Below, piece by piece: positions 6,884 through 49,542 of a stretch of DNA of 64,000 bases (position 1 is its first letter; each line of letters begins with the position of its first letter). The DNA comes from a virus. The translations under genes were made by a program, and so were the position numbers. The stretch covers positions 42,834 to 106,833 of IMG/VR virus record IMGVR_UViG_3300034103_001027, one strand, 5' to 3'. The notes under the pieces are model-generated. The model saw only the letters and a program-made list of their open reading frames with translations. It did no database searches and was not told the DNA's origin.

Positions 6884-7614
6884 TATTCCTCCGTGTACTC
6901 GTCAGCTTTGGGGTCGTATTCAGTATCTTCCCCTGTATTATTCTCTTCTGGAAATTTTTCTATTTCCGAATACTCGGCATCGATAATGACGCCGCCCTTT
7001 TCGAGGATCTCAGTGACAAGTGACGGGTCGGCTTTGATGCACGCCAGAAACACTTTCCTTCTTATGCCTCTGTCTGATACGGCTTGCGCGATGACTGCCG
7101 TTTGCAGTGCTGGGTCTTCCGAGAACGCCTTGAGTGCGATATTAGCGAGGATTGACTCTAGATCCGCTTCATCCAGTGATCCAACATCGAGTTGCTTATC
7201 AGCGTCAGCGGCCTTGGCGTGTCGCGAGATCAGGTCAAACCAGTCCTTTCGGAGGTTGAGGCTTGGCTCGTAGAATTCCTTCTCCTCGATGGATAGGCCA
7301 TTGCCGAGAGCTTTTTGGAACTCTTCATGCATCAGCTTGGCAAAGCCTTCATGCCCGCCAACTTCGGCAAAAAAAGAGGACATGACCATTGGCATGGCCT
7401 GTCCGTCTTTGCCTTTATCTTTTAGTGCTGCTAGAAGCTTCGTTGCAGCGCGGGTGCGGACCCTGCTTTCGGATCTGGTGATTATGCCTTTGGCTTGGTC
7501 GTTGTGATCCATAATACAATCTCGGCACAGTCCACTTGTTAGTTCGGCATTCCTGAAGACAAAGCCGCACGTCATGCAGTGCGAGTGCTGTTTATCTACC
7601 TTGGGCCAAACCAT
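6883..7614 (-). CDS. Hypothetical protein, possible terminase small subunit, with N-terminal CxxC...CxxC zinc finger
   Basis: Directly upstream of and coupled to terL; helical with an acidic tail. ATG at 7614 follows a terminator. Confidence 0.45.
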   Translation of the reverse strand: MVWPKVDKQHSHCMTCGFVFRNAELTSGLCRDCIMDHNDQAKGIITRSESRVRTRAATKLLAALKDKGKDGQAMPMVMSSFFAEVGGHEGFAKLMHEEFQKALGNGLSIEEKEFYEPSLNLRKDWFDLISRHAKAADADKQLDVGSLDEADLESILANIALKAFSEDPALQTAVIAQAVSDRGIRRKVFLACIKADPSLVTEILEKGGVIIDAEYSEIEKFPEENNTGEDTEYDPKADEYTEE

Positions 7615-7625
7615 GTTTCTTCCAG

Positions 7626-7660
7626 AAAAAAAGGCGGGCAGCAACGAGCCACCCGCCCTC
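7626..7660 (-). terminator. Rho-independent terminator after the capsid genes
   Basis: Minus strand GGCGGGTGGC-TCGTT-GCTGCCCGCC followed by T7. Confidence 0.8.
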
Positions 7661-7706
7661 TAGCGGCTTTCGTTACCGATTTAGCCGCCATCCCCAGATT
7701 GTGTGA

Positions 7707-7907
7707 TTAGCTGTTGCCCTTCATGCCCTGCATTTTCAGCGGGCTTGACGACAGAGAGCCAATCGGTTCTGTTCCGACCTTATTTGGGAAGCCAGATGGC
7801 CGTGGAATCACGTTCTGGACCTTTCCCTTAGACAGGGCGACTTTCGCGTCTGCACGATTGGAATCGTTCAGCTTCGCGCCGCCCAGGTTCATTTTTCCAT
7901 TAGCCAT
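7707..7907 (-). CDS. Small basic hypothetical (possibly virion) protein
   Basis: 66-aa ORF with an AAGGAAG RBS, in the capsid operon. Confidence 0.55.
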   Translation of the reverse strand: MANGKMNLGGAKLNDSNRADAKVALSKGKVQNVIPRPSGFPNKVGTEPIGSLSSSPLKMQGMKGNS

Positions 7908-7924
7908 GAGGTACTTCCTTGTTG

Positions 7925-8845
7925 TTAGGCTGCGACGAGTTCGTAAGTAATTAGCGCATGAACTGCAGTTGCGCCAGTCAAGTCACCACCATCCTTAATG
8001 ATGGTGATTGCAGTGTTTGCGTCACATGCAGCAAAGCTCGCGCCGTCAGCCAGGACTAGGCCGTTGGTGGCTGTTCCAATTCGCAGCACTACACTGCGAC
8101 CCAGACCGGCAATCTTAGCGTCCATGAGCGATACGGGTGACGAGGATTGCGTTCCACGCACCAGTATCCCAGTGATTCCTGCGGTTGTTCCGCCGACCGC
8201 AATCAATGACAGGTCGTGCAGTCTGTATTTATATCCAGGTACTGCTGGTAGCAGTGTTGCGCCAGCATTGACATTTGCAGTGGTCGTCTCGACCCTAGCA
8301 GTCTGGACTACACCAGCAGCGGCTGCTGGTCGTGCTGTACTGAAGTCGCACGAGACGTCCGATAGCACATTGTTGGCCACTGCTTCGAGAGCCACGATGT
8401 TTCCTGCTGTTCCAGCCACCAGCTTGCCGCTGGTGCCGCACACGAGGTTTGCGCCTTTAGATACGGTCGCACCGCCAAGTCCTTCAATGCGGCTGGCCTT
8501 GGTGATGATCAGGAATAGCTCGTCGTCTGCAACGTCGGATGTTAGGAATGGATCGACGATGCCGCATGGGGCAGTGCCCGTGGTGCATTGAACGACATCG
8601 GTGTCCATGCGAGTTCCGGAGGTGTCAGGTGTTACCAGAGACCCTGGCTTCAGCGCACCACCGCTCGTATTCTTAACCCACTTGGTCTTAACTCGGCCAC
8701 TATTCAAGACATAGAATATGTCGTTGGCTGAGTCATAACGCATTGCGACATCATCGCGCTCGTCACCAAGCAAGCCTGGTTCTTGAGCGGAGTCAGCCGC
8801 CGCTACTTTCTGCCCGAGGGCATATCTTCCGTGAAAACTAGACAT
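7925..8845 (-). CDS. Capsid decoration/cement-like protein
   Basis: Directly downstream of the MCP; Gly/Ala/Thr/Val-rich beta-type sequence. Confidence 0.55.
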   Translation of the reverse strand: MSSFHGRYALGQKVAAADSAQEPGLLGDERDDVAMRYDSANDIFYVLNSGRVKTKWVKNTSGGALKPGSLVTPDTSGTRMDTDVVQCTTGTAPCGIVDPFLTSDVADDELFLIITKASRIEGLGGATVSKGANLVCGTSGKLVAGTAGNIVALEAVANNVLSDVSCDFSTARPAAAAGVVQTARVETTTANVNAGATLLPAVPGYKYRLHDLSLIAVGGTTAGITGILVRGTQSSSPVSLMDAKIAGLGRSVVLRIGTATNGLVLADGASFAACDANTAITIIKDGGDLTGATAVHALITYELVAA

Positions 8846-11461: not shown

Positions 11462-11674
11462 ATGGACAGTATTCCTCCAACGGAAGAGTGGCTATCAGCT
11501 AAGGAAGTGGCGGCAATCTTTGGCGTCAGCGTGTCTCGGGTTTATTTTGCGCATAGTACTGGACGCAGGAATTCGTCTGGATCGCTAGTGCGGCTGACTA
11601 TGTTTCGGACTCTGTCCGGACTGGCTACGACCAGGAAGCTCGTGGATGAGTTCCTGCTGAAGCTGAATGGTTAG
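11462..11674 (+). CDS. Small HTH DNA-binding protein (DUF1580/excisionase-like)
   Basis: 'WLSAKEVAAIFGVSVSRVY' HTH and a 'VRL...SGLATTRKLVDEFL' tail; RBS GAAAGG before ATG 11462. Confidence 0.65.
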   Translation: MDSIPPTEEWLSAKEVAAIFGVSVSRVYFAHSTGRRNSSGSLVRLTMFRTLSGLATTRKLVDEFLLKLNG

Positions 11675-11861
11675 AAGCCCATGCACTGGAAATTGTATCT
11701 TATGTGATACAATATGCATTGGCTGTGGCAGGACTCTCGATGAGATATTTCGATGGCGCGCTATGCGCGACTGCGAGAAGCTCGAGGTTTTGAGGCGGAC
11801 GGGAGCACTGGACTGTGAGTCCACTTCCAGCGATGAATCAGCCGAAGGTGATCCGCGCTAA
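11667..11861 (+). CDS. DUF1289-like putative Fe-S protein
   Basis: 'SPCTGNC...CIGCGRTLDEIFRW' signature. Confidence 0.8.
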   Translation: MVRSPCTGNCILCDTICIGCGRTLDEIFRWRAMRDCEKLEVLRRTGALDCESTSSDESAEGDPR

Positions 11862-13188
11862 ATGGCTTCTTGAGGCTGAGTCTTGCCTTGTGTTTGCACT
11901 TGCCCCACAAGCTGCTGCCAATCATCTCGTGCATGATGTCTATCTGTCTCAGCCTGCGCTGCACATAGGATCGCTTGAGCATTGTCAGATTGGCCTTGAC
12001 GCCTAGTTCCCTGGCCTTGATGGCTATGATCATGTCCTCGATTTGAGTGGTAGACAATCCGAGTTCGTACTTCATGACCCATATCTGACCGGCTTGAAGC
12101 AGTTGCTTCTTATCGACAGCCAGTCTCTTTTGGTGTTCGCTAATCTGTTCTATTTTGAATCCAGCGCGAGGGAGTCCATTTGGCCTTCCGTTTGCTTGGC
12201 ACCATGCAGCAGTTTCCTTGTTTCGATTAGACTTCATCTGGCTTTCTAATTGTGCAATTGAAGCCATCAGCGATATCCATTCCTTACCCTGCCCTGTGTC
12301 TGTCCTGATTCGCTCGCAGACGAAGTGAACGTAAGCGCCTTTTCGCTGTATCTCGGCTATTGTCTTCATGGCGTCCAGGGTATTTCGCCACCCTCGATCC
12401 ATTCGGTAGATAACGACGTCATCCCCTGGCTGCAGGTCGTTCATAAGCCGCTTACCGGCCTCTCGCTCCATAAATGGCACTGAGAAGGCGCTAATGGCAG
12501 GATCGGAGTAAACTGGCCCTACAGGGCACTGTAGCTTCTCTGCGAGGTCCTCTGCGTATTTGGCATTGGCAGTGCCTTGCCACTTCAGGCCGAGCCCTGA
12601 GACGTACTGTGGCTCTGTGGATACACGTTCGTACATGCGGATCGTGCCTGTTGGTCGCTCCGTTTTGATCTTTTGAGGCAGGACGAATTCGCTATTCATC
12701 CATTTGACTTTTGGCTTCGTGTTTGACGATTGCGAGTTTTGAAGCCTCTTGATTAGTAGTGCTTCTCTAATTCGCTCGCTTGTCACATCAGAAGCGTATT
12801 GAGCCATAGCGGCTAGGATATTCGCCTGTAGCTTCCCGGAGGCTGTGGTCGTGTTGATCTGGTTGTTGATGAAATGCACGAAGATACCCTTCTCCTCGAA
12901 GAAGTGCATCAAGTTGCAGAAGTCTCTCAGGTTTCTGCATAGTCGGTCGATCTGCAAGCATATAACGTGGTCGCCCGGCTTTACCTGCTCGATGATGCGA
13001 CCACCACCTGGGCGGCCCGCAAAGGATTTGCTCCATGCGCTGACGCCAGCATCAGTAACCACAACTTGCTCAGCCTCTGGTATAACCGAAGTGGCATAAT
13101 TGGTTGTCCTGACCATTTGGTCTGGTATACTGATGTCAGAGGCTTTGGAGTCCTTATGGCTAACGCGATTGTAAAGGAATGCTTTCAT
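11761..13188 (-). CDS. Serine recombinase with two tandem resolvase catalytic domains
   Basis: Two copies of YxRVS (YNRVS at aa 6-10, YERVS near aa 186), each followed by D-x-x-x-SA, R-x-x-G and DR(L/G)xRN motifs and helix E. Confidence 0.9.
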   Translation of the reverse strand: MKAFLYNRVSHKDSKASDISIPDQMVRTTNYATSVIPEAEQVVVTDAGVSAWSKSFAGRPGGGRIIEQVKPGDHVICLQIDRLCRNLRDFCNLMHFFEEKGIFVHFINNQINTTTASGKLQANILAAMAQYASDVTSERIREALLIKRLQNSQSSNTKPKVKWMNSEFVLPQKIKTERPTGTIRMYERVSTEPQYVSGLGLKWQGTANAKYAEDLAEKLQCPVGPVYSDPAISAFSVPFMEREAGKRLMNDLQPGDDVVIYRMDRGWRNTLDAMKTIAEIQRKGAYVHFVCERIRTDTGQGKEWISLMASIAQLESQMKSNRNKETAAWCQANGRPNGLPRAGFKIEQISEHQKRLAVDKKQLLQAGQIWVMKYELGLSTTQIEDMIIAIKARELGVKANLTMLKRSYVQRRLRQIDIMHEMIGSSLWGKCKHKARLSLKKPFSADHLRLIHRWKWTHSPVLPSASKPRASRSRA

Positions 13189-13876
13189 GGGTAAACGTCG
13201 AAAAGGAGGGATGTTTTCACCGAGTCCCTATGTGACTGGTGCGAAGCAAATGTCAACTGGAGAGGAATTGCAAGCGATTGCCGTATACCAGAAGACGAGA
13301 GATGGTAGTTTAGCGGAATCGGTACTTAAGTCAAGGGCCTCTTGGGTGCAGAGTATCATTGCTAATATACCCATGCCCAGCTTTGCTGACATGGATACGG
13401 TGTTTTCTGATGTCATGCTGGCCGTCTATGAGTCGCTCTCGAACTACGATGAATCCAAGGCGGCCCTGTCCACATACCTCTGGAGGGTTATCTATAATTC
13501 TGCACTGACCAGCGCCAAAGAGCAGGATACAAATGCTGAGCAGTTTACCCCTGAACTGATCGTCGATGAGGCCGTTGATTACTCTGAGTGCATCGAAAAC
13601 GCCCGAAAGGTCATCTTGAATACACCCCCCGAGATGCTCAATGAGCGATCCAGAAAGGTTGCGCACATGATGCTCAAGGGTTACTCCGTTCAGGAGATAG
13701 CAAGCACCTTAGACGTGACCAAGTCCGTTGCCGGTGAGATAATCACCAGCATACGTCGATACATCGCTTGGTGCATGGTCAAGCAGAATCTATCTGCAGA
13801 GCCGGTCATTAGCGACAGCGATCTTATGGATCTGGCTGAGGAGCATGAGCGGGCCAATGTGACCAAATGGCGGTAG
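13187..13876 (+). CDS. Phage sigma-70/ECF-like RNA polymerase sigma factor
   Basis: Region 2-like 'LAVYESLSNYDESKAALSTYLWRVIYN' and region 4 HTH 'GYSVQEIASTLDVTKSVA'. Confidence 0.8.
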   Translation: MGKRRKGGMFSPSPYVTGAKQMSTGEELQAIAVYQKTRDGSLAESVLKSRASWVQSIIANIPMPSFADMDTVFSDVMLAVYESLSNYDESKAALSTYLWRVIYNSALTSAKEQDTNAEQFTPELIVDEAVDYSECIENARKVILNTPPEMLNERSRKVAHMMLKGYSVQEIASTLDVTKSVAGEIITSIRRYIAWCMVKQNLSAEPVISDSDLMDLAEEHERANVTKWR

Positions 13877-33166: not shown

Positions 33167-33708
33167 TCAATAGCTCCTTATATTTTAGATACAACAAAAA
33201 GAGAGGCCGGATAAAACTGCCGTTGCCGTACCTCTCAGGGGAGAATGCTACGCAGATGAGTGCCACGTAGCAGGCTAGTTCTTAACTGGACGGCAATCTG
33301 CCTGTTAAGCGCCAGCCCTCTTTGCCTTATACCCTTAGTCGTTGACTGGGTTAATTTCCATTTCGTAGTGCGACCTGGCTGTCTCGAGCATCGACTCGAA
33401 ATCAACGCCTCTATCGCTGCAGAAATGCATCATGTCGACTAAGAGGTCCAGGCAGTCAGATTGCATTGGACCTTCCGAGTTAGTGATGTCTGCATAAAAC
33501 ACGATGCATCGTTCAGCTAGCATTGATCTTTCTTGATTATCCACGAGCGCTGACCTCCAGTGATTGCTTACCGAGACTTGTAATGTCGAAACCATTTTCT
33601 ACTTCACCATCGACTGGCTCAACCAGCCCCTTTCGTTGTAGTGACTTGAGGATCAGGAATGTCTGGTGCCTGCTACCCCAGAACCATGGGCCTTGCCGCC
33701 ATGCACCA

Positions 33709-37148: not shown

Positions 37149-37684
37149 TTGTCTTCTCCTTTTGAAAATTGTTTACTATCCCGCAGGTACTTCAGAAGGG
37201 CGACCGCCTTCTTGTACTCAGCCTGAATCGCCAGATCCTCTAGTGCCGCATGCCCGTCAAGGGCCTTGCACAGGTCGGACATGGAGATCAGTACGTCTCG
37301 AATGCTTGTCACCATATCGATGGTAACGCCACCAATAGTGACGCCACCCTCTACAGTGAGCATCCCATCTATGACGGTGATCGTGTGCTTCACTTCTCCT
37401 CCAGCGTGTACGTGACTGCTACGTCGTCCATGGTTTCGCTAATTACCGCACCCTCGGACCTCAGCACTGCGAGTACGCTCTCAAATGCCTTCTTGGTGCA
37501 GTCAGATATAGCATCAACTGGAACAATTCGAACTGGTCGGCCACTCATGAGATCCTCTACGTGTCTAGCGATGTCACCTGCAGGCCACCCGAACGTCATG
37601 AACATCGCCATCTCTTGCCTGACGATTTCACTTGACACCTCATTACTTAGCTTCATATTGATTCTCCTGTCTCTTAAGAGACGG

Positions 37685-38644
37685 CTAAACATTAAAGAAC
37701 TTTCGCAATCTCTCGTGACCGTATTGACCTTTCGTCTTCTCAATTATCTGCTTGACCGTGTACTCCTTTCTCTCATGCCCTGCGGACTCGACGAACATTT
37801 GGCAGCCCATCGAGCAGGCCCCGGTAACTGACCTGTACAACTGAACGCACTTCTCGAACGGCAGCTTGTCGGTTAGCTTCAGGCCCTTGAACTCACTGGT
37901 GTCCCTCGGTGATAACTTGTAGGCCAGGGACTCACGCGCTTTCTCGATGGTCTCTCCGTGAGAATAGTTCTCCCCGTCTGTTACGAGATACGAAACCTTG
38001 CCGTCGATCTGGCGTAGTTTGCGAATACCAAACTTCTCGCTTATGACTTCCGAGAAGACACCATCAACCTTGATGTACTTGCCGTTCTGCCAAGACAGGA
38101 GTCGAACATCGCTTCCTATATGGCGACTGTCGCCCTGCAGGTGTAGGTCTCCACCAACCGTAGGATTAAATCCTTCCGGCAGGCTGGTAACACTCCGCAG
38201 ATATAGGTTTCCACCAACCGTAGGATTGAATCCTTCCGGCAGGCTGATAACCCTCGACAGGTATAGGTCTCCACCAACCGTAGGATTAAATCCTTCCGGC
38301 AGGCTGGTAACGCTGTGCAGGTAAAGGCTTCTACAAACCGTAGGATTAAATCCTTCCGGCAGGCTGGTAACACTCCGCAGGTCGAGGTATCCACCAACCG
38401 TAGGATTGAATCCTTCCGGCAGGCTGGTAACACTCCGCAGGTCGAGGTCTCCACCAACCGTAGGATTGAATCCTTCCGGCAGGCTGGTAACACTCGACAG
38501 GTATAGGTCTCCACCAACCGTAGGATTAAATCCTTCCGGCAGGCTGGTAACACTCCGCAGGTCGAGGTCTCCACCAATGGGCTGCCTCCCGTCGAACTGC
38601 TCGTCAGTAATATTGAATTTCTTGCAAAACTCTTTTCGATTCAT
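37685..38644 (-). CDS. Leucine-rich-repeat-like protein with seven 20-aa repeats
   Basis: GGDLxLxSVTSLPEGFNPTV x7. Confidence 0.85.
   Translation of the reverse strand: MNRKEFCKKFNITDEQFDGRQPIGGDLDLRSVTSLPEGFNPTVGGDLYLSSVTSLPEGFNPTVGGDLDLRSVTSLPEGFNPTVGGYLDLRSVTSLPEGFNPTVCRSLYLHSVTSLPEGFNPTVGGDLYLSRVISLPEGFNPTVGGNLYLRSVTSLPEGFNPTVGGDLHLQGDSRHIGSDVRLLSWQNGKYIKVDGVFSEVISEKFGIRKLRQIDGKVSYLVTDGENYSHGETIEKARESLAYKLSPRDTSEFKGLKLTDKLPFEKCVQLYRSVTGACSMGCQMFVESAGHERKEYTVKQIIEKTKGQYGHERLRKFFNV
38140..38576. repeat. 60-bp tandem repeat (about 7 copies), coding
   Basis: Repeated 'ccaccaaccgtaggatt(a/g)aatccttccggcaggctggtaac' at 60-bp period. Confidence 0.95.
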
Positions 38645-41600
38645 ATTGATTCTCCTGCCTCTTAAGAGACGGCTAGTGTCCTAATTTCCTCGAACTCGCA
38701 CTCGCTGACCCCATTGATCCTTAACCACTGCACATGCTCGTACTTCTTGTAGAGTTCATCTCGAATCTCGTCGGCACTTGCGTGGCTACTTAGGATCACT
38801 TGGTCGGCGATACGGTAAAACAAGCCGGACGCATTAACCTTGCGCCCTGTGAATTCGCATTGATAAATCATGTGTTCTCCTTTTTATAATGCGACATGCC
38901 GTACATGGCAAGTCTGGGTCACCAGTCATACTGTGGAAGTTCTTCGTGCAGCGGACCATCCGCATCGAGGACCAACCATTTGCAATCATTGTCCTTGGCT
39001 ATACGAAGAAGCCTCGCAACATTCGTGACACCAAAATTCTCAAGAGCACTAATCGTCTCCTCGAAATCCGGTGGTGTGTATATTCGCCATCCATATTCAT
39101 ACGGGTAGCATATTATGTACTTATTAACCCTACTGCACTTATCTTGGAGCGCTGCGCTTTCAAGTACATTGATATGTGCAGTGCTGAAGACAATCTCTTT
39201 GTTGATTTCGTAGTTCATATTCGCTTCCCTTCTTCTGTAAATTCGTATTCGTTGCAAACGATATTCTCAGCAACATTCTCGTCACCCATCAAGTAGTCGT
39301 ACTCCCTCTCAAGGCTCTTGTACAACCAGTGCGCAAGGTCTCGGAAGAGATCAAGCAAGTCGTCTTCGACGGTTGGCTCAGTGATATCCTTGCCGTCCCG
39401 CCCTTCTATGTAGTCAACGCTCATTGTGTACGCATGAACACCCCTGCCACCCTGACTCACTCGGGCCGTCAGTTGATACATGTACGGCTTCTGTATCGAC
39501 TGCAGTCCTTCGCCTATACGCAGTAACTCCTTGTCATTGCAGTACGCGAGGAGCTTCTTCTTCCAGCCAGGCGAGTACTCATAATCCCCGGCCCAGGATG
39601 CTCCATCACCCTGCGAGCAGAAGCCGCTAAAGTAAATCACTGGCTTGTACACAGGTATCTTAGCGCCGTCTTTTCCGAGACGGTAAGTGCAGCTTGTTCT
39701 TTCGCTCAGGGTGATACCGAGTATCTTCGTGATCGCAATGAAGTCATCGAAGATGCAATCCCACCACTCGTCGTATGGGTAATCCCCCCCTCGATACCAG
39801 TCGCGAGCATTGGCTTTTGCTGAATCGCTAAGCTCCTCGTAGGTGTAGACCTTCGTCTCAATCGTTCGCATGGCTCTCCTCCGTTCTCTGTATTGGCTCG
39901 ACCTTAGTGACACGCAGTCCACCGCAGATTGTCTTGGCAGTCACCTGATGTGAAGGAGCCCTGCCTTTCGAAAATGGATTGGACTTCCACTGAACCTTGA
40001 TGCAATCTTCATCGTGCGATATCCGCACAGTCGTCCCAAGGCATGCGCCGGGGTACTCATTGCCACCGCTGACAATGCCGTTCTCTATGGCGCGAGCAAT
40101 CCTTAGTAACTGCTCGGCACTCAACTTAATACCGTTCATTACATCCTCCTAATCGAACCAAAAGTAAAGCCTAATTGCAGACACAATGAACTCATCTGCT
40201 TGATTGGCGAACCTACTGAAGTCAGCCAGAGTTTCTTTACTGTACTCCCCGACATACTCCAGTCCCTCGATAGTCACCCTGTAGTCGTCTCTTAGGTGAC
40301 TGATGGCGTAGCCATGGGCCGTAAACACTGGGTTGCTCTCCATAAATTTAAGCATCTCCGAGGCAGTTGGCGCACTGTTCTGGTGATCCTTTCCTTCAAT
40401 GAACTTCTCATCGAACAACTTCTTCAATGTCTCTAGGGTCATACCCCTGAAACTCTCGCAGTCGCCGACCTCATCTCGGCCAAAGATAATCTGATTCCGT
40501 CGCTTGTAATCTTTATTTAACATCAGTATTCTCCTTAAATATCTAATCCACCACGCTGAAATAAAACCACCTTCTTGGGATGCTCGATCTCGTGCGAGCT
40601 TTTCATTCTTCTGCCCCTGCACTTTCAATGAACTTCTCCCTTGTCAACACCTGAATCACTACAGACATATCCGAAGCCAGCCCCCTGGGTGATATCGGGC
40701 CAGTTGGCACCTCCTTCAGAGTGCAGTTCGGCCCGTATGGTAGGATGGTCAGTTGACCAGCCCAGCTTGACCCAAAATCATGTGCTTCCAGTAGAACCCA
40801 GCCATCAGGCCGGTACTCATTCAGTTGCACCCCAAGACGCCGTGACAACTCTGGCGGCTCAATGTCTTGCTTGCCGCAGTATGTTGCGATAAACGTCGAA
40901 CGGTCCACGTATTCCATCATTCTTCTCCTGTTTCTTGTGGTACATTCGCCTTACATGGCAAGTTGTTGATACAAAAATCATACGCATCAGAAAATCTGTC
41001 GTCGCTTCGCACCATGGAATCAATCTTATTGACCCACAGAACAGTGACCGGATGTTCCCTCAGCGCATCGCCATAGACACCATGGCCCTTTAGGTCCGAT
41101 AGCGCCCTGGAGAATCCATTAGCTACCGCCATAAGATTGCAGGCGTCTTGGACCGATAGGGCGTCATCGCATAGTTCAGGTATTGGTTTCATTGACATGA
41201 GTCCTTTCTAAAGTTGACTTCATTTCGAGGATACAGAACATGTATTCATCATGGGCAACTGGCCGCCAGTTCTCCACGAGATCCTTCAAGACCATTGGCC
41301 CTGTGCAGAATCTCCCTTCATGGAAGTAGATGATTTTCTTTGTTTTCTCGTGGACATACGAAGGACAGAATCCCCAGTATTTCCAGCACCCAGTAATTGT
41401 GTAGCCATACCTCGCCATGTCTGGGATCTTGCGGAACCCGTCAATAGCATCCGCCTTGTAGTACCTGCGACGGTCAGCCATCACATCCATCCTTTCTCTT
41501 TGAGGTGCTGCTTAATATCCCTATAGGTGCAGTTGCTTAGTCCTGGCCAGAAGACGCTAAACATAGTTCCGTACTCAAGCTCTGCCTTGCACGCACCTCC

Positions 41601-44600
41601 TCGCCACCACCCGCAGTAGCCGCAACTACTGAACTTAATTCCTGCATACCGTGCGTACTGCACCATAATGCAGCCGCACGTATCGCCTGCCAAATTCTCA
41701 CCGAATCTAACCTGTCGGTCGTCCGGCTGCTGCTGAATAAACTCGATCATGTCTTCCCTGGTTACTACTTTCATCACTGCTCTCCCTTCGTCTCTTTAGA
41801 GACGGCATTAGCTTTCTCTTGAACGTACGACATGGCGTCACACCGAATCGTCGGAACCCCACGAATGATTGCCATTGCTCCTCCACCGAACTCATCAGTT
41901 CGCATTTTGCTACATGTGTATGCCCACGAGCAGAAGAATGGGTCATCGATCTCAAGCTCCTCAATTAACTGTCGAGCAATCGCGTCGACTGTAATCGGAC
42001 AGAACGACTCGTCTCCGATGAACAGCACTCCATCACCCTTGATCTCAATCTCCACTCCATACTCAAGATAAGACTCGTATTCGTCCTCACTTTCTCCGTA
42101 TTCTAGACATACAGATTTAGCCGCCTCGATCTTCGCTCTCTCAATGATCTCCTGAACGCGAGGCATCTTGTCTTTTGGTATCTCCATGAATGAACTGCTT
42201 TGTGAATAGTTATTGGCCATTTCATCTCTCCGTTTGTAAGGGTTAATTCCGCCACGAACCATCTCTAAAAAGACGGTTATATGGCAAGTCACCAGCGTGC
42301 CCACTCAGGCAACGCTTCGTAAGTTTCCTGCGCCAACTCTTCATATCGCATCGCCCATGGAATGTCGCCGCCAGTCCTCTTGGTTCTCGCCTCAAGGGAC
42401 AGCGAAGCGTATTGGCGTAGTTGTTTAACTGCATCCATGGCTTCCTTTCCTTTGCCAGGGAACATGACCCTAGCTTCAGTCATGGGCCGATCCCACATAG
42501 ACCGATAGAACCCACGCAAGTCCTCCTCGTCCATCCCGTCCAAGTTCGGGCTGCCAACCCAATTCCTGGACTTCTTCCTCGGTGTCGCCTTAAGTTCCTT
42601 AAGGTTCTCCAGTGCCCACTTTCGCATCGCAACAGCTTCGCTTCCTGCGCTATTGTGTCCGCCCCCATTATTCCAGGCGTCGTATAGTTCATCAGGAAGT
42701 TCCAAGCCGAACCGGCAGTAAACGTCATCCGGCACTGTCTCTGGTAATCCATCTGATCCATACGACCCAGATAGCGTCGTTTGGTAGTCACCCAGCTTCG
42801 CGCTGCCCATCATGAAGTGCCCGAATTGCGACATCTTCACGAAGCGAACTACACCCTTGAGCTTTCTGTACTTTTCGCTCTCGCCTTGCATGAGAATCAA
42901 GAATTCTCCGTGAGCGAACTGCTCTCCGCTGCTAGTATATCCTCGCTTTGTTGTTGTTACGAACATTAGTTGCCCCTCCAGTCGAGGTCTTGTGTTATGC
43001 AGATAGAACGGCGTCGCGTTAAGGCGAAACCAGCGGTCAGGCAGTCGTTCACATCAGCGGAAGTGTACTCGTTCCAGGTGGTAATGTATTCTTCGCACAG
43101 TTCCAGGAACTTCTTTTCTGCGGACTCATAGTCGTCGAATAAGTAAGCCTCTTCTAGTAAATTGCGGTCGATGATAACTACTAGTGTCTTATTCATGATT
43201 AACCTTTCTGCCGTCTCGAAAAAGACGGCCCGTGATGATAGTCTATACTTCCCCTACGATCTCAAGATCAGGGAAGCTTGGGATCTCTAGGGACCGAATA
43301 AATTCCTCAATTGTCGTACTTGGATCGCGTGCTTCAAGTTGATCCAATGGGATCAAGATACGACCTGATTGAGTGGCGTTGAACATTGCAATACCATTTG
43401 GCGTGTAGTATTCAACGTGCCCATCAAGCTCGTACCTGGTGTCCCGTTGAATCAAGATGGAGGCTCCAATTTCAATACAATACGCAACAGTGTCGTTGAA
43501 ATCACTTTGAGTGCATTCGTAGAAGTACCCGAAACCATCATCACCTAAGTCGCCTTCAAGGCACGGCGACAGCAAGCACTCGATCTTCTCTAATTGCTCC
43601 TGCGTTACCTTGCCGCCAATGTAAACCGATCCACTAAACCTGTCAGCCATGTTACACCTCCTCCCTGTCGTATGTATCACAAACCCCAAAAGCTTCTGCC
43701 GCATCGTCTGGATTCTGCTTAAGGTACCTAACCCTCTGCTGTAATGCGTCAATTAGCACGCCAACCGGAACATCCCTCGGTTCTTCGCAGTCGTGATTGA
43801 CTGTAAACGCCACGTCAAACATGGTGTTGTATCTCATCGCTCTCTCCTTAGTACTTGGATTTCTCTTGCCAAACAAACTTAACGCCTTCCGGTAGGTCGG
43901 CTGTCTGAAACTCTGCCACAATTGGAGCCATTGCATCGAACTGCTCCTTCGTTATCCTCCTATCGGTGCTAGTCCAATTGACCGTCACCTCATTAGTGTG
44001 GTTGTAGTAAATGTAGTTGATGCCGCTTCCGAACTTGTCAAGCATGAACAACTCAATATCACGGTCGATACGAAGCTTCTTGGACTTGTTATCAAAGTCG
44101 CAGAGAATCTCAAGCCGCTTCTGCGCCTTAAAGCGAGCTTTCTTTTCGGCGTCTCTTGCGGCGATAGATTCAGGTGAGTAGTACCCAGTTCTCCTTCTCT
44201 CAGCCACCAATTCCCTCATCTCTTTCGAGACGGGCTTGTAGTGCTTTCTTGTGGCTTTAGACTCGAACTTCTTGCCGGTCCACGCCTCAAGCTGGGCAAT
44301 AGCGGCATCTGCCTCTTGCTTCCATCTCTCGACAATACCCGTGTCCTCGAGGAGTATTTGAATCTCCTCATCGGATCGGCACTCAATGAATGCAGGAAGC
44401 TCAGCATCGGTCAGCCTGAGCGACTCCTTGAAGATGCGCAGGCACTCCTCCTTGCTCTTTGCCCAGCTTCCACTGCCACCGTGATACTCGACCCAGGGGG
44501 CACCGAGATACCCGGCCAGCCAGTACCACGCATTGCCTCCATGCATTGGGACGCCTTCCCAATCACACAGGTGAAGGTCAACGAACGGCTTGAGTTCTGG

Positions 44601-44846
44601 CCTGACCGAGAGTATCTCCTCGTGGCAACAGCCGCCACCAGCATCGACCCATCGACCTCGACCGTCCTTCTCTTTGATGTTTGCTGTTACAGAGAAGTCC
44701 TCATGGCCATTCTTACAGTCATCGTCCAGGGTTATTCGAATGTCGAACAACCGGCCACCCTTCCTCGCCACGATACTGTGCCGCAGGGTGTTAGTCGTTT
44801 CAGTTGTTTCAGTCATTTCATCTCTCCTTCGTCTCTTTAGAGACGG

Positions 44847-45008
44847 TTAGTGCGTCGTGACATTGCATTCGTACTTGCCTATCAAGTGCGATAATGCTTG
44901 GTTGGCATTGGGCCAGCTACACCAGCCCATGCCGTTCTTGTAAACAGAGCCGGACATGAAGATGTGATACACATCTGGTCCGACTCGAACTGTATAGATC
45001 AAGGTCAT
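44847..45008 (-). CDS. 53-aa gene (MTLIYTVRVGPDVYHIF...) bracketed by identical palindromes; not in the ORF track
   Basis: Hand-translated; AAGGGG RBS follows the palindrome, and the TAA abuts the next palindrome. Confidence 0.6.
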   Translation of the reverse strand: MTLIYTVRVGPDVYHIFMSGSVYKNGMGWCSWPNANQALSHLIGKYECNVTTH

Positions 45009-45315
45009 GCCATTGCCCCTTTCGTCTCTTTAGAGACGGTTAGTACATTTGGTCAGCCAATTGACATCGCAGTTCCTGAGCCAGGTCCAGGCAGTTTGAG
45101 CTTCTGTACACGCCGACATTCGCCCAGTACTGATGCAAGTACGCACCGCCACTAAAAGAGTTATCGCCGGTCTGGTAATCCCAAGAGCCGTCCTTGTCAG
45201 CTCCAACGGTTAGCTGTATCCCTGGTTTGTCGTCACCCTCGAAGGCAAGATAGTCATCCTCGATGTACTTCTTGATATGGCGACACAGCTCGTAGAGTTC
45301 TTTGATTGTTGGTTT

Positions 45316-45477
45316 CATTTGCTTTTCCTTAGTGAGTAGACTGATTCTCCAGGTGGCCAGATGCATGGCACGAGATACAGCGTGACGCCGCACTTCGGGC
45401 ACGTAATAGTCTCTGGTTCGGGCCAGCCAGGGACATTGATCATTTCTTTGCAGGCACCGCATGATTGACTAGTCATG
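45316..45477 (-). CDS. 53-aa zinc-ribbon protein (CGAC...CPKC); not in the ORF track
   Basis: Hand-translated; ATGA overlap at its start, and its stop overlaps the start of the next gene. Confidence 0.55.
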
Positions 45478-46510
45478 CGACGCCTCTGTCTCTCTTGCGA
45501 CGGTACGCTTACGCCTTATCCGGGTCACTAGGAACGTACATTCCCAGCTCTCCTCGTCACCGCTAATAAGCGCCGCTTCCCACATACAAGGGCGACACCA
45601 TAGCCTCGTTCGTTCGTCAGCCTCCCTGATAGCGGCCTGGCACATATTCTCAAGCCAACCCTCGCTACGGTCGTACAGGTCAGACGGAAGCTTCACTTTG
45701 TATTTATCCTTAACAGTGCTCATGCTGTTCTCCATGAAGTTGTTGGCGCTTCTTCGATGGCGTAACGTGTGCCATCGTCAATCAGAACTAGAGCCTCTCC
45801 AGGGAAGAGATCAGGCTTGCCGATGCAGATTGAGCCATCGGCGATCTTGGAATTTACAAGGGACATAATGTCCCCGAGGGTCGCGTCGTCCTCGTAGTCG
45901 CTGTAGTACACACAGGCTTTCGAGAAGGACACGAAGTGATTAGTGCCGTTGGTCATCAATCATCTCCTCATTAAGGGTTATATGGCAAGTCCTATCCGGA
46001 ATAATAGCGACAGAGACTTGAGGTCTGTCGCCATTCATGTTGATACCTACGACCCATCGGTGTGACTGGCACCCCGAGAGGAGGAGGGTAAGTAGCAGTA
46101 ATCCTTTACGCATGATAATCCTTTCTATTTGATCCATGAAAACTCATAGGGCCATTGCGACGGACTGCATGAATCGTGAATGCGTTGGTACGACCGAATA
46201 AGATCCCTATGACTCTCTGGCAGGCCATATATGGTAACCAGTCGATCCCAGGTGTGATTCTCGAAATCCACGTTGTACTCATCGTCTCCGATGAGGCATC
46301 CCGCCGCACACTTGAGGGTCTTACCGTCTCCTTCGAGATGATAGCGACATATAGCACCGGCTACACATCGCTCGCCCTGAGCGAGAAGATGCGCCTCGAT
46401 CTGTGCCTTAACCTCTTCCCGTGTTGCAAGGTGCAATGTCTTTAGCGTGATCATGATTAACCTTTCTTGTTGATGATTGCCGTCTCTAAAAAGACGGCCT
46501 CTTGCTTATA

Positions 46511-46552
46511 CAAAAACTTGCCATACAACGCAAGAGTGTTATATGGCAAGTC
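46511..46552 (-). terminator. Hairpin built from two inverted copies of the TTGCCATA motif, followed by T5
   Basis: Minus strand ACTTGCCATATAAC-ACTCTTGC-GTTGTATGGCAAGT-TTTT. Confidence 0.6.
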
Positions 46553-48771
46553 GATTCCAAAAATTACAGCAGGAACTCAGTCGTAGTCCCGCATACGATC
46601 CACTTGCCAACCTTGTAGTCCAGCGTGCCGCATGGATGGCGATGCGGGACAAAGACCACAAGGTCTAGGTACTGCAAGGCCAGGAACATCGGGCTATCCT
46701 TGGGCATGTCGACTGGAATTGATTCATGCGCTGGCCGCCAAGCGCCCTTCCACACTAGGCTTCGGTATGTATCAATAATCTCTTGCCTGGACAATCTAGC
46801 CCCGGTCTTTTCAAGGACGACTCTAATCGCCTCTCTAACCCATTTAGCGCGAGACCGACCGGCAGCCGCTCGATCTACTGGCTCTATGACGCAATTTACG
46901 TGCAGGTTTCTTTTGCTGGACCCAGCCCAATACCCGCATCCATCCCTGGACGCAGTGAAAAGCTCTCCATGCAGCCAGAACTTGTCGCCTGGCGCGAGCA
47001 ATCCAAACCGATAAACTGGCTTTATTTTTTTCGTTCTCATGTTTCCCTTTCACTCGTCTTTTTAGAGACGGTTGATTGTTGTTGCGCATTTTCCCTAAAG
47101 CAAATCCTGGATCTCGTCAGCTAGGCGATACGTGTACTTCAGTTCCTCGTCAGATGCCCACTGCATGATATATGCAGCGGTAACCCCTTTCATACTAATG
47201 CCACCACCGTGGGCCATCAAAAACTCGTCCACAATAGCCCTCATGGCTTCATTGAGATGCACCCACTGTCCGCCCACTGGAAGGTTCAGTGCTTCCGTCT
47301 CCTTGGCGCTAAACAGATCGCAGGAGGCGATGTCGCCCCAGCCGTCTGCATTAGACCAAAACAACATTACGTTGTTTTCCATGCTTCGAATCACATAGAT
47401 CATGGTTTCCCCTTCGTCTCTAAAAAGACGGTTAAGTGTTATTACGGATTGTCTCTAGGTTAAGACATGGATTTCGAGCGATTGTGGACAGAGCTGCCGT
47501 CCGGGTAGATATTGAGCCCAACGTAAAACGCCGGGAGCACTCGCCGATCCTCTCCTGCGGCCTCTGCGGCCAATCCCCTGGCAATGTCATCCAGGATACT
47601 GTACTGGCAGCCATCTTTGCAGATATTGGCGACAGTGACATTCCTTGGGTCAAAGCCTTCAGCCCGCAGCAGACCAACGACACTTCGCACGGGGGTTCTA
47701 CTTAGCACCTCAGGCAGGCGGTACACGAAGCTCGTGCTGTTGACTGTAATCTCAACTCTCATTTACTTCCCCTTCGTCTCTAAAAAGATGACTCTTAGCC
47801 CAGACGGACCTTCCGCCCGGCTCTCTTGAACACGCCGCCAACGGGTCGCTGCCGACCCAATTCGGGGCAGGCCGTAATGACCCAGCGCCCGTTTGGTTGC
47901 AACACCACGCGCCCAGGCCCAGCCGGAACCGGCCTTTTCAGGCTAGCATGTTCCATTGCCACTAGGCCCAACGCCTTCCTGGGTGGCATCCCATAGTGGG
48001 CACACATTGCCCGTATGGATACCCAGTGCCCATAGTATGGACAATTCATAGTAACTTTCCTTATACCAGGAGTCCCAAAACGAAACAAGCCAACAGCCCC
48101 GATAAGGCAATTGGCTAGCGTCGTCTCGAAAAAGACGGACCAAGGTCGGCGCGCACCCCGATGATAGTCCCCTTATGATAGTCCGCATCTTGCCGATTCA
48201 CCCGTCCCCAAGGCAGCCGCTGACCATCGGGCCAACCGCTGCTGTGTAGGACAGGTGAATCGTTTGAAACAACCGTCTCAAAAAAGACGGGTCAATCCCC
48301 AATCGGAAGTCTGGTAGTGCCGAATTCGGCGAATCCAACAAACGTATAGTTCGCCAAGGCTTTCACGCTATCGCTCCACTTCCGGCCATCCACGCCCAGG
48401 TCGTTCAGAATGTCCAAGAACACTTCGGCAGTCGCGCCGTAGTGACGATGCGTCTCAGCGTATGCCTCCCAGTAGAGGTTGCCAATCGCATCAAAGCCGA
48501 CTAGCACTTCAACTGGGCGGATATAATCCGGGTGTTCACACAGATACTTAGCAGCCATTTCGATTCCCCTTTGTTTCTAACCGTCTCAAAAAAGACGGCT
48601 TGCACCAATTACGGATTTTCTCCGTGGTGCTTTTGGTCCAATTGAGACAATGGAAACAAGTGAAACTTGCTTCCCCTACGCAACAAACGTAGGCTAACGA
48701 ATCCCGTAGGATACATTAGCCTACGCCGCCCCCCTAGTTTGAGGGGCGGAGAAGGTTATATGGCAAGTCGA

Positions 48772-49542
48772 TTAGGCGACTTCAGCGGTAGCCGCTGCAA
48801 AAGCTTCTCGAGCCATCTGATCTACTTCAGGGGCAAGCATTCCATCCAGCCAAACTGCCTTGTCGGCAAGGGCTTGGCTTACCACTAGATCGAACACTCT
48901 ACCGCTAAACTCAGGGCCGCCAGCCTTCAGCCAGTCAGCGATTAGCAGCAGCTTGTCATTGGTATCCGCTGGCAGGACCGCTGGAATAGGCGACTCAACC
49001 GTCTCTTGAGAGACGGTTGGATTGCCAGTCGCACTCTCGGGCTGCGCTTCCTCAGCCTTCTTCTTAGACTCAATCGCCCCTACAGCCTTAAGCTGCGCAT
49101 TCATCTGCTGGTTGAGCAGATTGCCAACGCTCCGCAAGCGGTTCCCGATGCACTTGCAATCCAATTCCCACTTGCGATACGCTTCGGCGTCTGCTGGAGA
49201 CGGGCGTACTTGCATGCGCATTTCCCGGACAACTAAGTCCCAATGGGCGTAGCTGGTCCATGCAAAGCCGCACTTGGCGCTAAACACCCCTTGGCTGACG
49301 TCGCGCTTCTTCTTCTTGGCAAGAGACTTCAGCGCTTCAACAATGGTCTCATTGCAAGACCAGAACGCCTTGATACATTGCAGCTTGTCGGCGCTCGCCG
49401 TATCAACGGTCGAGTCCGCAAACACTTCCCGCATGAATGGCTCCATCATCACGACGCGCTCACTGTCAGTCAGTCCATTCTCAATCTCTTGTGCCAGCAT
49501 ATCCCTAACGGCACTCTCGAACTTGGTCAGATTCTTGCTCAT
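48772..49542 (-). CDS. Hypothetical 256-aa protein, first gene downstream of the large structured RNA
   Basis: AAGGAG RBS overlaps a palindrome; a second palindrome lies inside the gene. Confidence 0.7.
   Translation of the reverse strand: MSKNLTKFESAVRDMLAQEIENGLTDSERVVMMEPFMREVFADSTVDTASADKLQCIKAFWSCNETIVEALKSLAKKKKRDVSQGVFSAKCGFAWTSYAHWDLVVREMRMQVRPSPADAEAYRKWELDCKCIGNRLRSVGNLLNQQMNAQLKAVGAIESKKKAEEAQPESATGNPTVSQETVESPIPAVLPADTNDKLLLIADWLKAGGPEFSGRVFDLVVSQALADKAVWLDGMLAPEVDQMAREAFAAATAEVA

What the first reader, a model, noticed from the sequence alone, without database searches (positions are those of the whole stretch)
11761..13188. Serine recombinase with two complete catalytic domains in one chain
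Seen: two resolvase-type domains, each with an intact YxRVS nucleophile and downstream arginines, and no large-serine-recombinase recombinase/zinc domain. Established: serine recombinases act as tetramers of single-domain subunits. Inference: a fused pseudo-dimer could handle asymmetric sites. The phage already has a tyrosine Int and attP for integration, so this enzyme probably does something else, such as multimer resolution, inversion, or acting on the cassette array.
Basis: partly seen in the sequence, partly recalled or inferred. Interest (0 to 1): 0.7.

Follow-up and report, generated by a model that had tools for sequence, protein, structure and literature searches.

The report
Two-headed serine recombinase of planctomycete phages
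This phage gene encodes a DNA cut-and-rejoin enzyme with two complete catalytic heads in one chain; it belongs to a large, apparently undescribed phage family that keeps both heads intact, but its DNA target and its job in the phage are still unknown.

Summary
ORF 11761-13188 (-) encodes 475 aa with two full PF00239 domains (101 and 78 bits; cut-off 23.3). Both have Ser, Arg and Asp active-site residues. A 31-aa linker joins them, and one helical C-terminal domain follows. There is no Recombinase or Zn-ribbon domain.

It is not a fusion artefact. At least 150 clusters (50% identity) share the collinear architecture, and 367 hits reach E<=1e-30. In 175 members every canonical catalytic residue is invariant in both domains. 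All second domains form one clade, so the duplication is old.

The gene sits at a fixed place in an uncultured phage lineage: sigma-like gene (divergent), recombinase, small HTH gene (convergent), then the capsid genes. It is present in 25 of 29 related contigs.

The attP core is the tRNA-Arg(TCT) 3' end of Pirellulaceae, so the host is a planctomycete. Four complete relatives keep the two-headed enzyme but have no such integrase and no copy of this window's palindrome motif, so the link to the array is not supported.

Best reading: both heads are active and two chains supply the four active sites. No target site, partner site or prophage copy was found. I found no paper describing it. Within this scan, only notes on this same stretch mention it.

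The parts
11761..13188 (-). Gene for the 475-aa two-headed serine recombinase (P0001), including the stop codon at 11761-11763
   Evidence: ORF and translation. Two PF00239 stretches. About 33 full-length homologues at 34-69% identity. At least 150 clusters with the collinear architecture.
12844..13188 (-). Catalytic domain 1 core (residues 1-115). The nucleophile Ser10 codon is at 13159-13161. R8, D46, S50, R59, D81, R82 and R85 are the other active-site residues.
   Evidence: VIA-align to the Sin catalytic domain 5c31_G: Z 15.7, rmsd 1.8 A, 117 residues aligned over model 2-134. In 175 family members R8 is 140/140, S10 144/144, and R82 and R85 167/167 among non-gap rows. The mapping to gamma-delta R45, D67, R68 and R71 comes from the alignments.
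12739..12843 (-). Long E-helix of domain 1 (residues 116-150)
   Evidence: Helix 116-150 in the AlphaFold model. It is the most conserved segment of the family, with mean pairwise identity 0.42. R139, which aligns with gamma-delta R125, is kept in 170 of 173.
12646..12738 (-). Flexible inter-domain linker (residues 151-181), with a partly conserved basic and aromatic patch (K158, K160, W163)
   Evidence: pLDDT is below 50 at residues 158-175. Linker length across the family is mostly 24-72 residues (one row 0) with a mode of 31-36. Mean identity is 0.17. W or Y at position 163 occurs in 106 of 175.
12295..12645 (-). Catalytic domain 2 core (residues 182-298). The nucleophile Ser190 codon is at 12619-12621. 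R188, S233, R242, D264, R265 and R268 are the other active-site residues.
   Evidence: VIA-align to Sin 5c32_A: Z 16.2, rmsd 1.6 A, 113 residues. R188 and S190 are 174/174, R265 is 175/175 and D264 is 173/175.
12193..12294 (-). E-helix of domain 2 (residues 299-332), followed by a GRP-type arm
   Evidence: Helix 299-332 in the model. Model residues 181-421 align with all 179 residues of the gamma-delta resolvase/Hin chimaera 2gm4_A (Z 15.7, rmsd 3.0 A).
11764..12192 (-). C-terminal domain (residues 333-475): a beta-hairpin plus four helices, probably an HTH-type DNA-binding domain; the tail from about residue 452 is disordered
   Evidence: Modelled alone it reaches pLDDT 80.7 and pTM 0.70. Foldseek finds nothing at E<=0.001. 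VIA-wide gives only weak matches to HTH domains, Z<=5.1 (small terminase DBD, DeoR, sigma region 4). It is the least conserved folded part, with identity 0.18. There is no Pfam hit.
13187..13876 (+). Divergent ECF-type sigma-factor-like gene. Its start codon abuts or overlaps the recombinase start. The likely true start is 13211, which follows a GGAGGG Shine-Dalgarno sequence.
   Evidence: PF04542 Sigma70_r2 E 3.5e-7. TIGR02937 sigma70-ECF E 3.4e-10, and a weaker match to the Rhodopirellula/Verrucomicrobium sigma family. Sequence read. Orthologues lie in the same divergent position in L002 and L005-L009.
11462..11674 (+). Small conserved HTH gene (70 aa, or 82 aa from 11426), convergent with the recombinase gene. 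It is a candidate accessory or directionality factor, or a regulator.
   Evidence: Weak sub-threshold hits to Rv2175c_wHTH (E 5e-4) and the excisionase-type HTH_17 (E 4e-3). Homologous small ORFs lie on the opposite strand directly downstream of the recombinase in L002 and L005-L009.

Best explanation
The gene encodes a working site-specific serine recombinase of unusual build: [catalytic domain 1 + E-helix] - flexible linker - [catalytic domain 2 + E-helix + HTH-like DNA-binding domain]. The second half alone is a complete small resolvase or invertase unit. The first half is an extra, fully equipped catalytic head with no DNA-binding domain of its own. I infer that both heads cut DNA, so two chains rather than four supply the four active sites of a strand-exchange synapse. 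Because each chain has only one DNA-binding domain, the sites should be asymmetric, with one specifically recognised half-site per pair of heads. The enzyme is an old, vertically inherited gene of a lineage of uncultured phages; this phage's host is a Pirellulaceae planctomycete. It forms a fixed module with a sigma-like gene and a small HTH gene at the border between the replication and capsid genes. Shown here: the architecture, the conservation of both active sites, the family size, the synteny and the separate tyrosine Int/attP. Inferred: catalysis by both heads, the two-chain stoichiometry and the asymmetric site. The biological task is unresolved. My ranking is: resolution or circularisation of replicated phage DNA about 35%; the lineage's ancestral integrase with the small HTH protein as helper about 30%; an inversion switch about 10%; something else about 25%.
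For: Two PF00239 domains lie above cut-off. Each matches solved catalytic domains at Z 15-16 and rmsd 1.6-2.0 A, and residues 181-421 cover the whole of gamma-delta resolvase. In 175 members drawn from 50%-identity clusters, the nucleophile Ser and the Arg and Asp residues aligning with gamma-delta R8, S10, R45, D67, R68 and R71 are invariant or nearly so in BOTH domains. The two cores are about equally conserved (0.34 and 0.37), while the linker and C-terminus drift (0.17 and 0.18). All 173 second domains form one clade (support 0.997), so the duplication is old and has been retained. The family is large: at least 150 clusters match collinearly at E<=1e-58 and 367 reach E<=1e-30. Synteny is conserved in relatives with recombinase identity 31-44% and capsid identity 25-55%. 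The tandem form is present in 25 of 29 capsid-related IMG/VR loci that have enough upstream DNA. No split forms were found apart from fragments on 1-kb contigs. Integration in this phage is accounted for by a tyrosine Int with a tRNA-Arg attP.
Against: There is no biochemical evidence, and conservation of residues does not prove that both heads cut. No recombination site, partner site or rearranged isoform was found. The relative placement of the two heads in the model is not reliable (pTM 0.47), and no multimer or DNA complex could be modelled. A covalent tether between two subunits may hinder the 180-degree subunit rotation of the standard mechanism, depending on which pair is tethered. One relative has a single-domain recombinase in the same module (L071), and three relatives have none (L047, L058, L061). 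So the second head, and even the gene, can be dispensed with.
Confidence: 0.55

Rival explanations
1. It is the integrase of the lineage, a new kind of serine integrase. The small convergent HTH protein acts as its excision or directionality factor, and the tyrosine Int in this larger phage is a later addition.
For: In four complete relatives (65-68 kb, CheckV 100%) it is the only recombinase found. PF00239 hits only this gene. There is no phrog_1 integrase, although this phage's own genome gives a positive control at E 4.7e-20, and there is no PF00589 hit. An excisionase-like small HTH gene is always adjacent. The best PHROG is 'integrase' phrog_95 at E 2.4e-54. ESM Atlas structural neighbours of residues 176-427 include small Resolvase+Recombinase proteins.
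Against: No member was found in 802 Planctomycetota and Pirellulaceae genomes by profile. None was found in the 185,579 species genomes by peptide patterns. It has no zinc-ribbon or coiled-coil domain, which known serine integrases use to tell att sites apart. There is no att-like non-coding DNA next to the gene. phrog_125 'DNA invertase' scores almost the same. This phage already integrates through the tyrosine Int and tRNA-Arg attP.
Confidence: 0.3
2. Only one head is catalytic in practice. The other is a built-in structural or regulatory partner, comparable to accessory-site subunits of resolvases or to the separate catalytic-domain-only partner genes seen beside some integrases.
For: Domain 1 has no DNA-binding domain of its own. 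A single-domain enzyme occupies the same module in L071. Earlier notes of this scan describe extra catalytic-domain paralogues beside serine integrases (AI notes, unchecked).
Against: Those stand-alone partners have lost the serine, whereas here Ser, Arg and Asp are invariant in both heads over 175 diverged members. A purely structural domain would not be expected to keep its nucleophile for that long.
Confidence: 0.2
3. It is a DNA invertase that flips a promoter or gene segment, for example to switch the neighbouring sigma factor or the late genes.
For: The second half resembles Hin, Gin and resolvase over its full length. phrog_125 'DNA invertase' hits at E 4.7e-50. It is tightly associated with a sigma-like gene on the opposite strand. 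An 18-nt perfect inverted repeat lies at 33322-33339 and 52208-52225.
Against: No convincing inverted repeats flank the gene or its module. The 18-mer pair is expected about 0.08 times by chance (my estimate) and has no extended similarity. No inverted repeats of that kind occur in two complete relatives. No inversion was seen among 6 groups of near-identical contigs from different samples across about 15 kb around the gene.
Confidence: 0.1
4. It acts on the CCGTCT-N6-AGACGG palindrome array, moving or shuffling the small early genes as cassettes.
For: The array is real: 15 matches against 0.12 expected, all within 37.6-50.4 kb. An asymmetric enzyme could in principle use such sites.
Against: Four complete relatives with the enzyme have no copy of the motif, while this genome has 14. 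The array lies 24 kb from the gene. Its central bases vary between copies, which blocks serine-recombinase exchange between unlike sites (established for the 2-bp overlap). The positions between genes fit RNA hairpins or terminators better. One relative has hairpin repeats of another sequence, so co-variation is not fully excluded.
Confidence: 0.03
5. It is an artefact: two adjacent resolvase genes joined by an assembly or sequencing error.
For: None beyond the rarity of the architecture.
Against: The same uninterrupted architecture occurs in at least 150 clusters from many independent samples and assemblers. It also occurs in 25 IMG/VR loci. The ESM Atlas holds the same 475-aa sequence letter for letter, possibly from the same sample.
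Confidence: 0.01

Closest known systems
Small serine recombinases: gamma-delta/Tn3 resolvase, Sin, Hin and Gin invertases
   Same: Residues 181-421 superpose on the whole of gamma-delta resolvase (179 of 179 residues, rmsd 3.0 A, Z 15.7). Both heads match the Sin and Gin catalytic domains at Z 15-16. The active-site residues are the same. The layout is a long E-helix followed by an arm and a helical DNA-binding domain.
   Different: There is a second complete catalytic domain with its own E-helix, fused in front through a linker of about 31 aa. The protein is 475 aa, against about 185-200 aa. The C-terminal domain is larger and gives no HTH_7 Pfam hit. No res, hix or gix-like sites were found.
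Large serine recombinases (phage serine integrases PhiC31, Bxb1, TP901-1, A118, SPbeta SprA)
   Same: They are phage-encoded and of similar length. Domain 1 groups with LSR catalytic domains in a rough tree. Structural alignments of residues 174-438 run on into the LSR recombinase domain (9dxd_A, 235 residues, rmsd 3.9 A, Z 12.1). A small adjacent gene could be a directionality factor.
   Different: There is no PF07508 or PF13408 hit and no zinc ribbon or coiled coil. The extra length comes from a duplicated catalytic domain instead. NCBIfam LSR models (XisF, CcrA/B/C) reach only 22-77 bits against cut-offs of 375-900.
Two-recombinase systems such as CcrA/CcrB of SCCmec, and split or partnered serine integrases
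   Same: These are precedents for a recombination machine built from two different serine-recombinase catalytic units. This point is from my own knowledge; related AI notes appear.
   Different: There the units are separate genes, each usually with its own DNA-binding domains, or the extra unit has lost its serine. Here the two units are one chain, share one DNA-binding domain and both keep the active site.
IS607-family serine transposases (TnpA)
   Same: Domain 1 aligns with the IS607-like TnpA catalytic domains (6dgc_D, Z 15.3). IS607 is the known case of a serine recombinase with a non-standard domain order and unconventional, asymmetric use of DNA-binding domains (PMC6188088, abstract as listed).
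   Different: There is no N-terminal MerR-type HTH; the chain starts directly with strand beta-1 at residue 2. The context is a conserved phage module, not an insertion sequence.

Membership tests
Serine recombinase superfamily (Pfam PF00239 catalytic domain) | Resolvase-type catalytic domain recognised by the family profile above its curated cut-off | tested here: met
   There are two separate matches, 101 and 77.8 bits against a 23.3-bit cut-off. hmmscan gives E 4.6e-51 with 2 stretches.
Serine recombinase superfamily (Pfam PF00239 catalytic domain) | Nucleophile serine plus the conserved Arg and Asp set (gamma-delta R8, S10, D36, R45, D67, R68, R71) | tested here: met
   The set is present in both domains of this protein and is invariant or nearly so in both domains of 175 relatives.
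Serine recombinase superfamily (Pfam PF00239 catalytic domain) | Catalytic-domain fold with a long C-terminal E-helix | tested here: met
   In the model, pLDDT is mostly above 85 in both cores, with helices at 116-150 and 299-332. Z is 15.7 and 16.2 to Sin at rmsd 1.8 and 1.6 A.
Serine recombinase superfamily (Pfam PF00239 catalytic domain) | Forms a covalent 5'-phosphoserine intermediate and exchanges DNA strands | not testable with these tools
   This needs biochemistry.
Small serine recombinases (resolvase/invertase type) | One catalytic domain followed by one short C-terminal HTH, about 180-200 aa in total | tested here: not met
   The protein has two catalytic domains and 475 aa. Only the second half (residues 181-421) has this layout.
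Small serine recombinases (resolvase/invertase type) | C-terminal HTH of the resolvase type (HTH_7) | tested here: inconclusive
   There is no Pfam hit. The C-terminus modelled alone gives only weak HTH-type matches, Z<=5.1. In the full model it superposes on the gamma-delta HTH region.
Large serine recombinases (serine integrases) | Recombinase domain (PF07508) after the E-helix | tested here: inconclusive
   There is no PF07508 hit at E<=1. However, structural alignments to the LSR recombinase domain run over residues 174-438 at rmsd 3.9-5.9 A, and Atlas neighbours carry PF07508.
Large serine recombinases (serine integrases) | Zinc-ribbon domain with an embedded coiled coil (PF13408) | tested here: not met
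   There is no PF13408 hit. The C-terminal 143 residues are a hairpin plus four helices and a disordered tail.
IS607-type serine transposases | N-terminal MerR-like HTH in front of the catalytic domain | tested here: not met
   Strand beta-1 starts at residue 2 and Ser10 lies in the first loop.

The most novel reading that the evidence does not exclude
One chain is a pre-assembled half of the recombination synapse. Its two heads sit on two different DNA duplexes, forming the pair of subunits that stays together during subunit rotation. A dimer of chains then carries out complete strand exchange on sites that each have only one specifically recognised half-site. That would be a new way of building and targeting a serine-recombinase synapse, kept in a whole lineage of phages. 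A still bolder variant is that a single chain makes a site-specific double-strand break on its own, for genome-end formation or replication.
Probability: 0.2. Interest if true: 0.85.

Novelty: new variant of a known kind. Interest (0 to 1): 0.64.

Why it matters
All characterised serine recombinases have one catalytic domain per chain and assemble four chains into a synapse that exchanges DNA by rotating one pair of subunits against the other. A natural family that ties two active heads together and gives them one DNA-binding domain raises three direct questions. Which two subunits of the tetramer may be tethered? How is rotation affected? How are asymmetric sites read? The family has hundreds of clusters, so many natural variants are available for study. 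Serine recombinases are genome-engineering tools, so a two-chain enzyme that may need only one specific half-site per duplex could be useful. For phage biology, it defines a conserved sigma-recombinase-HTH module of unknown role in planctomycete phages, a poorly known group.

Tried and rejected
1. Recombination sites. Repeat scans of 9.5-15.5 kb and self-BLAST of the whole 106.8-kb record gave no credible pair near the gene. A 38-bp imperfect palindrome at 11684-11721, between the convergent genes, has no partner elsewhere. The 18-nt inverted pair at 33322/52208 has no extended similarity.
2. Two 19-bp palindromes, TTTTGACA-N3-TGTCAAAA, flank a 920-bp non-coding stretch outside the window. They contain TTGACA on both strands and look like operators or promoters. 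The odd-length centre fits a 2-bp staggered cut poorly.
3. Inversions. None was seen among near-identical contigs from different samples, and two complete relatives have no long inverted repeats.
4. Prophage copies. None was found in GTDB species genomes by peptide patterns or in 401 Planctomycetota plus 401 Pirellulaceae genomes by profile. These are samples, and those two searches had no positive control.
5. INPHARED phages. No record covers 80% or more of the protein, and there is no nucleotide match.
6. Split forms. Only two fragments on 1-kb contigs were found.
7. C-terminal fold. There is no significant match.
8. Literature. Six full-text searches found no description of tandem or duplicated serine-recombinase catalytic domains. 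The library is incomplete.
The long contigs of the closest homologues (P0004, P0011, P0020, P0024) therefore could not be read. Metagenome records were not held for whole-record searches.
11. PF00589 six-frame searches missed this phage's own divergent Int, so phrog_1, checked against this phage's own genome as a positive control, was used instead.
Full report
THE OBJECT. ORF 11761..13188 on the minus strand encodes 475 residues. Pfam finds PF00239 (Resolvase catalytic domain) twice and nothing else of note. A six-frame search of the whole record scores the two copies at 101 and 77.8 bits against a cut-off of 23.3. These are the only two hits in the 106.8-kb record. The two halves are 31% identical (E 1e-22). 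The database gene call for this protein starts at Met25 and would remove Ser10. However, the first 24 residues are conserved across the family, so Met1 is the start.

ANATOMY. An AlphaFold model built on 28 homologues (pLDDT 79.9, pTM 0.47) shows this order:
- catalytic core 1 (residues 2-115);
- a long E-helix (116-150);
- a disordered linker (about 151-181);
- catalytic core 2 (182-298);
- a second E-helix (299-332);
- a beta-hairpin and four helices (344-440);
- a disordered tail.

Each core superposes on solved serine-recombinase catalytic domains: Sin at Z 15.7 and rmsd 1.8 A for head 1, and Z 16.2 and rmsd 1.6 A for head 2. Residues 181-421 cover all 179 residues of a gamma-delta resolvase/Hin chimaera (rmsd 3.0 A). 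So the second half is a complete small resolvase or invertase unit. The first half is an extra catalytic head with its own E-helix but no DNA-binding domain. Modelled alone (pLDDT 80.7), the C-terminal domain has no significant structural match. The weak ones (Z<=5.1) are all HTH DNA-binding domains. There is no Recombinase (PF07508) or zinc-ribbon (PF13408) hit. NCBIfam models of large serine recombinases reach only a fraction of their cut-offs. The low pTM means the relative placement of the two heads is not known.

IT IS A FAMILY, AND BOTH HEADS ARE KEPT. A word-indexed search found about 33 full-length homologues at 34-69% identity. A full HMMER scan of 1.84 billion cluster representatives, using the family profile, found at least 150 clusters matching collinearly across both heads (E<=1e-58 at rank 150). 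It found 367 hits at E<=1e-30.

In an alignment of 175 members, the residues aligning with gamma-delta R8, S10, R45, R68 and R71 are invariant among non-gap rows in head 1. R8 is 140/140, S10 is 144/144, and R82 and R85 are 167/167. The same positions are essentially invariant in head 2. R188 and S190 are 174/174, R265 is 175/175 and D264 is 173/175. The two cores are equally conserved (mean pairwise identity 0.34 and 0.37), and the first E-helix is the most conserved segment (0.42). The linker and the C-terminal domain drift (0.17 and 0.18). Linker length is mostly 24-72 residues with a mode of 31-36.

In a tree of the separated heads, all 173 second heads form one clade (support 0.997). The duplication therefore happened once, long ago, and has been retained. 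No split version was found apart from two fragments on 1-kb contigs. An assembly artefact is excluded.

WHERE IT LIVES. The window is part of an IMG/VR virus record of 106,833 bp. The gene lies between a replication block and the capsid block. The replication block holds a helicase, a 5'-3' exonuclease, a GNAT, a primase and PhoH. The capsid block holds a 413-aa protein, the major capsid protein, the large terminase and a 693-aa protein.

In eight metagenomic and viral loci whose recombinase is only 31-44% identical, the order is the same. Three genes always go together:
- an ECF-type sigma-like gene, transcribed divergently, with its start codon abutting or overlapping the recombinase start (13187/13211-13876 here);
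- the recombinase;
- a small HTH gene, convergent with the recombinase (11462-11674 here; weak excisionase-type HTH_17 and wHTH hits).

I then scanned IMG/VR with a capsid-protein alignment, which returned 40 loci at 25-39% capsid identity. Of the 29 with at least 3.2 kb of upstream DNA, 25 carry the two-headed recombinase at the same spot. That is about 13 distinct phages after collapsing near-identical contigs. One locus (L071) carries a single-domain serine recombinase of 299 aa in the same three-gene arrangement; it is 39% identical to head 1 and 27% to head 2. Three loci have none. The gene is therefore an old, nearly core component of this phage lineage, not a passenger of a mobile element.

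The tyrosine integrase is real but divergent. ORF 53852-54970 hits phrog_1 'integrase' at E 1.3e-18, and PF00589 at 25.2 bits, just below the 27.1 cut-off. Next to it lies the 3' part of a tRNA-Arg(TCT) (about 55144-55196). A 40-nt stretch of it matches exactly the 3' ends of tRNA-Arg(TCT) genes in Aureliella and other Pirellulaceae MAGs. In one Aureliella MAG contig, two copies of this core lie 8.07 kb apart. The first is 100 bp from an integrase 48% identical to the phage's (E 1e-104). This looks like an integrated element with attL and attR. So the host is a Pirellulaceae planctomycete, and integration of this phage is accounted for without the serine recombinase.

The palindrome array is also real: 15 matches to CCGTCT-N6-AGACGG against 0.12 expected, all at 37.6-50.4 kb. 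Four complete relatives (65-68 kb, CheckV 100%, two with terminal repeats) were then examined. They carry the two-headed recombinase as their only PF00239 gene. They have no phrog_1 or PF00589 integrase, and this phage's own genome served as a positive control for phrog_1. They have no copy of the palindrome motif, whereas this genome has 14. The caveat is that one relative has intergenic hairpin repeats of a different sequence in its early region.

WHAT IT DOES. Shown: the architecture, the selection on both active sites, and the fixed module. Inferred: both heads cut, two chains make the four-site synapse, and one DNA-binding domain per chain implies asymmetric sites.

From the established geometry of the gamma-delta synaptic tetramer (my knowledge of structures 1ZR2 and 1ZR4), the tether is easiest to reconcile with subunit rotation if it joins the two subunits that rotate together. 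Those subunits sit on different duplexes. A tether across the rotation interface would restrict rotation. This cannot be decided here.

I could not find the target. There are no credible repeat pairs near the gene or genome-wide. There are no inverted repeats in two complete relatives. There are no inversions among near-identical contigs from different samples. There are no prophage copies in 802 planctomycete genomes or in the species-genome collection searched by pattern.

The gene has the same orientation as the replication and capsid operons. It is bracketed by two opposite-strand genes with no spacer. A transcript running from the HTH gene into the sigma gene would therefore be antisense to the recombinase gene. 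This hints at mutually exclusive expression, but it is inference only.

My ranking of biological roles:
- resolution or circularisation of replicated DNA, about 35%;
- ancestral integrase with the HTH protein as helper, about 30%;
- inversion switch, about 10%;
- other, about 25%.

COMPARISON AND NOVELTY. [quoted passage not shown] It is not a small resolvase or invertase, because it has two catalytic domains. It is not a large serine recombinase, because it has no zinc ribbon, and the recombinase domain is not recognised by sequence. It is not an IS607-type transposase, because it has no N-terminal HTH. The PDB has no chain with two such domains. INPHARED phages have no full-length relative. 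Six full-text searches found no description. Source databases call these proteins only 'DNA invertase Pin-like'. Earlier notes of this scan describe separate, mostly serine-less catalytic-domain partners beside integrases in other genomes. None describes a fused form with both heads intact outside this same stretch. I class it as a new variant of a known kind.

No multimer or DNA-complex modelling was available, and neither were model coordinates. All functional statements are inferences from sequence.

Noticed in passing
window 63872-64000 and bases 5-133 of the record (outside the window): The two ends of the 106,833-bp record share a 129-bp direct repeat at 99.2% identity. The contig is probably a complete, circularly closed assembly, although it is listed as 'linear, 77% complete'.
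   Followed up: partly
window 53852-54970 (-) and about 55144-55196: A divergent tyrosine integrase (phrog_1 E 1.3e-18) lies next to an attP-like 3' fragment of tRNA-Arg(TCT). The fragment matches Pirellulaceae and Aureliella tRNA genes exactly, which assigns the host.
   Followed up: yes
L028 151-203 and 309-1418; L026 215-261 (Aureliella sp. MAG contig JBIIJD010000025.1, about 40.15-48.26 kb): An about 8-kb stretch is flanked by 48-53-nt direct repeats of the tRNA-Arg 3' end. It carries an integrase 48% identical to the phage Int. It is probably a small integrated element using the same att site.
   Followed up: partly
window 11462-11674 (+): A small HTH gene (70 aa) is conserved in all relatives examined, always convergent with the recombinase and sometimes overlapping its 3' end. 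It gives weak excisionase-type HTH hits only.
   Followed up: partly
window 13186-13211: The start codons of the recombinase (13188, minus strand) and the sigma-like gene (13187, or more likely 13211 after a GGAGGG Shine-Dalgarno sequence) abut, with no intergenic promoter space. The same back-to-back arrangement is seen in L005, L006 and L071.
   Followed up: partly
window 11684-11721: A 38-bp imperfect palindrome with a central AT lies between the convergent recombinase and HTH genes. It has no T-run and no partner copy elsewhere in the genome.
   Followed up: partly
window 33322-33339 and 52208-52225: An 18-nt perfect inverted repeat (TTGCCTTATACCCTTAGT) has its copies 18.9 kb apart and brackets the early region. 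About 0.08 such pairs are expected by chance (my estimate), and there is no similarity beyond the 18 nt.
   Followed up: partly
L024 1676-1695 and 2597-2616 (record bases about 7175-8115, outside the window): Two copies of the 19-bp palindrome TTTTGACA-N3-TGTCAAAA, with centres CGA and TCG, flank a 920-bp stretch with no long ORF. TTGACA occurs on both strands, which suggests operators or promoters.
   Followed up: partly
window 37667-50416: The palindrome array CCGTCT-N6-AGACGG is confirmed: 15 matches with at most 1 mismatch against 0.12 expected. The motif is absent from four complete relatives.
   Followed up: partly
L071 3740-5617: A more distant relative has a single-domain serine recombinase (299 aa, closer to head 1) in the same divergent-gene / recombinase / convergent-small-gene arrangement upstream of the capsid genes. 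It is a natural one-headed comparator.
   Followed up: partly
G805 (L087) about 2.6-10.1 kb, and its ends: A complete 67.9-kb relative has a 967-bp exact terminal repeat. It also has 50-70-bp repeats containing the hairpin GGGAGCCATTGCGGTGGCTCCC in its early region. This is an array of hairpins like this window's, but with a different sequence.
   Followed up: no
window 38137-38577: Tandem 60-bp repeats at about 89% identity lie inside a coding region.
   Followed up: no
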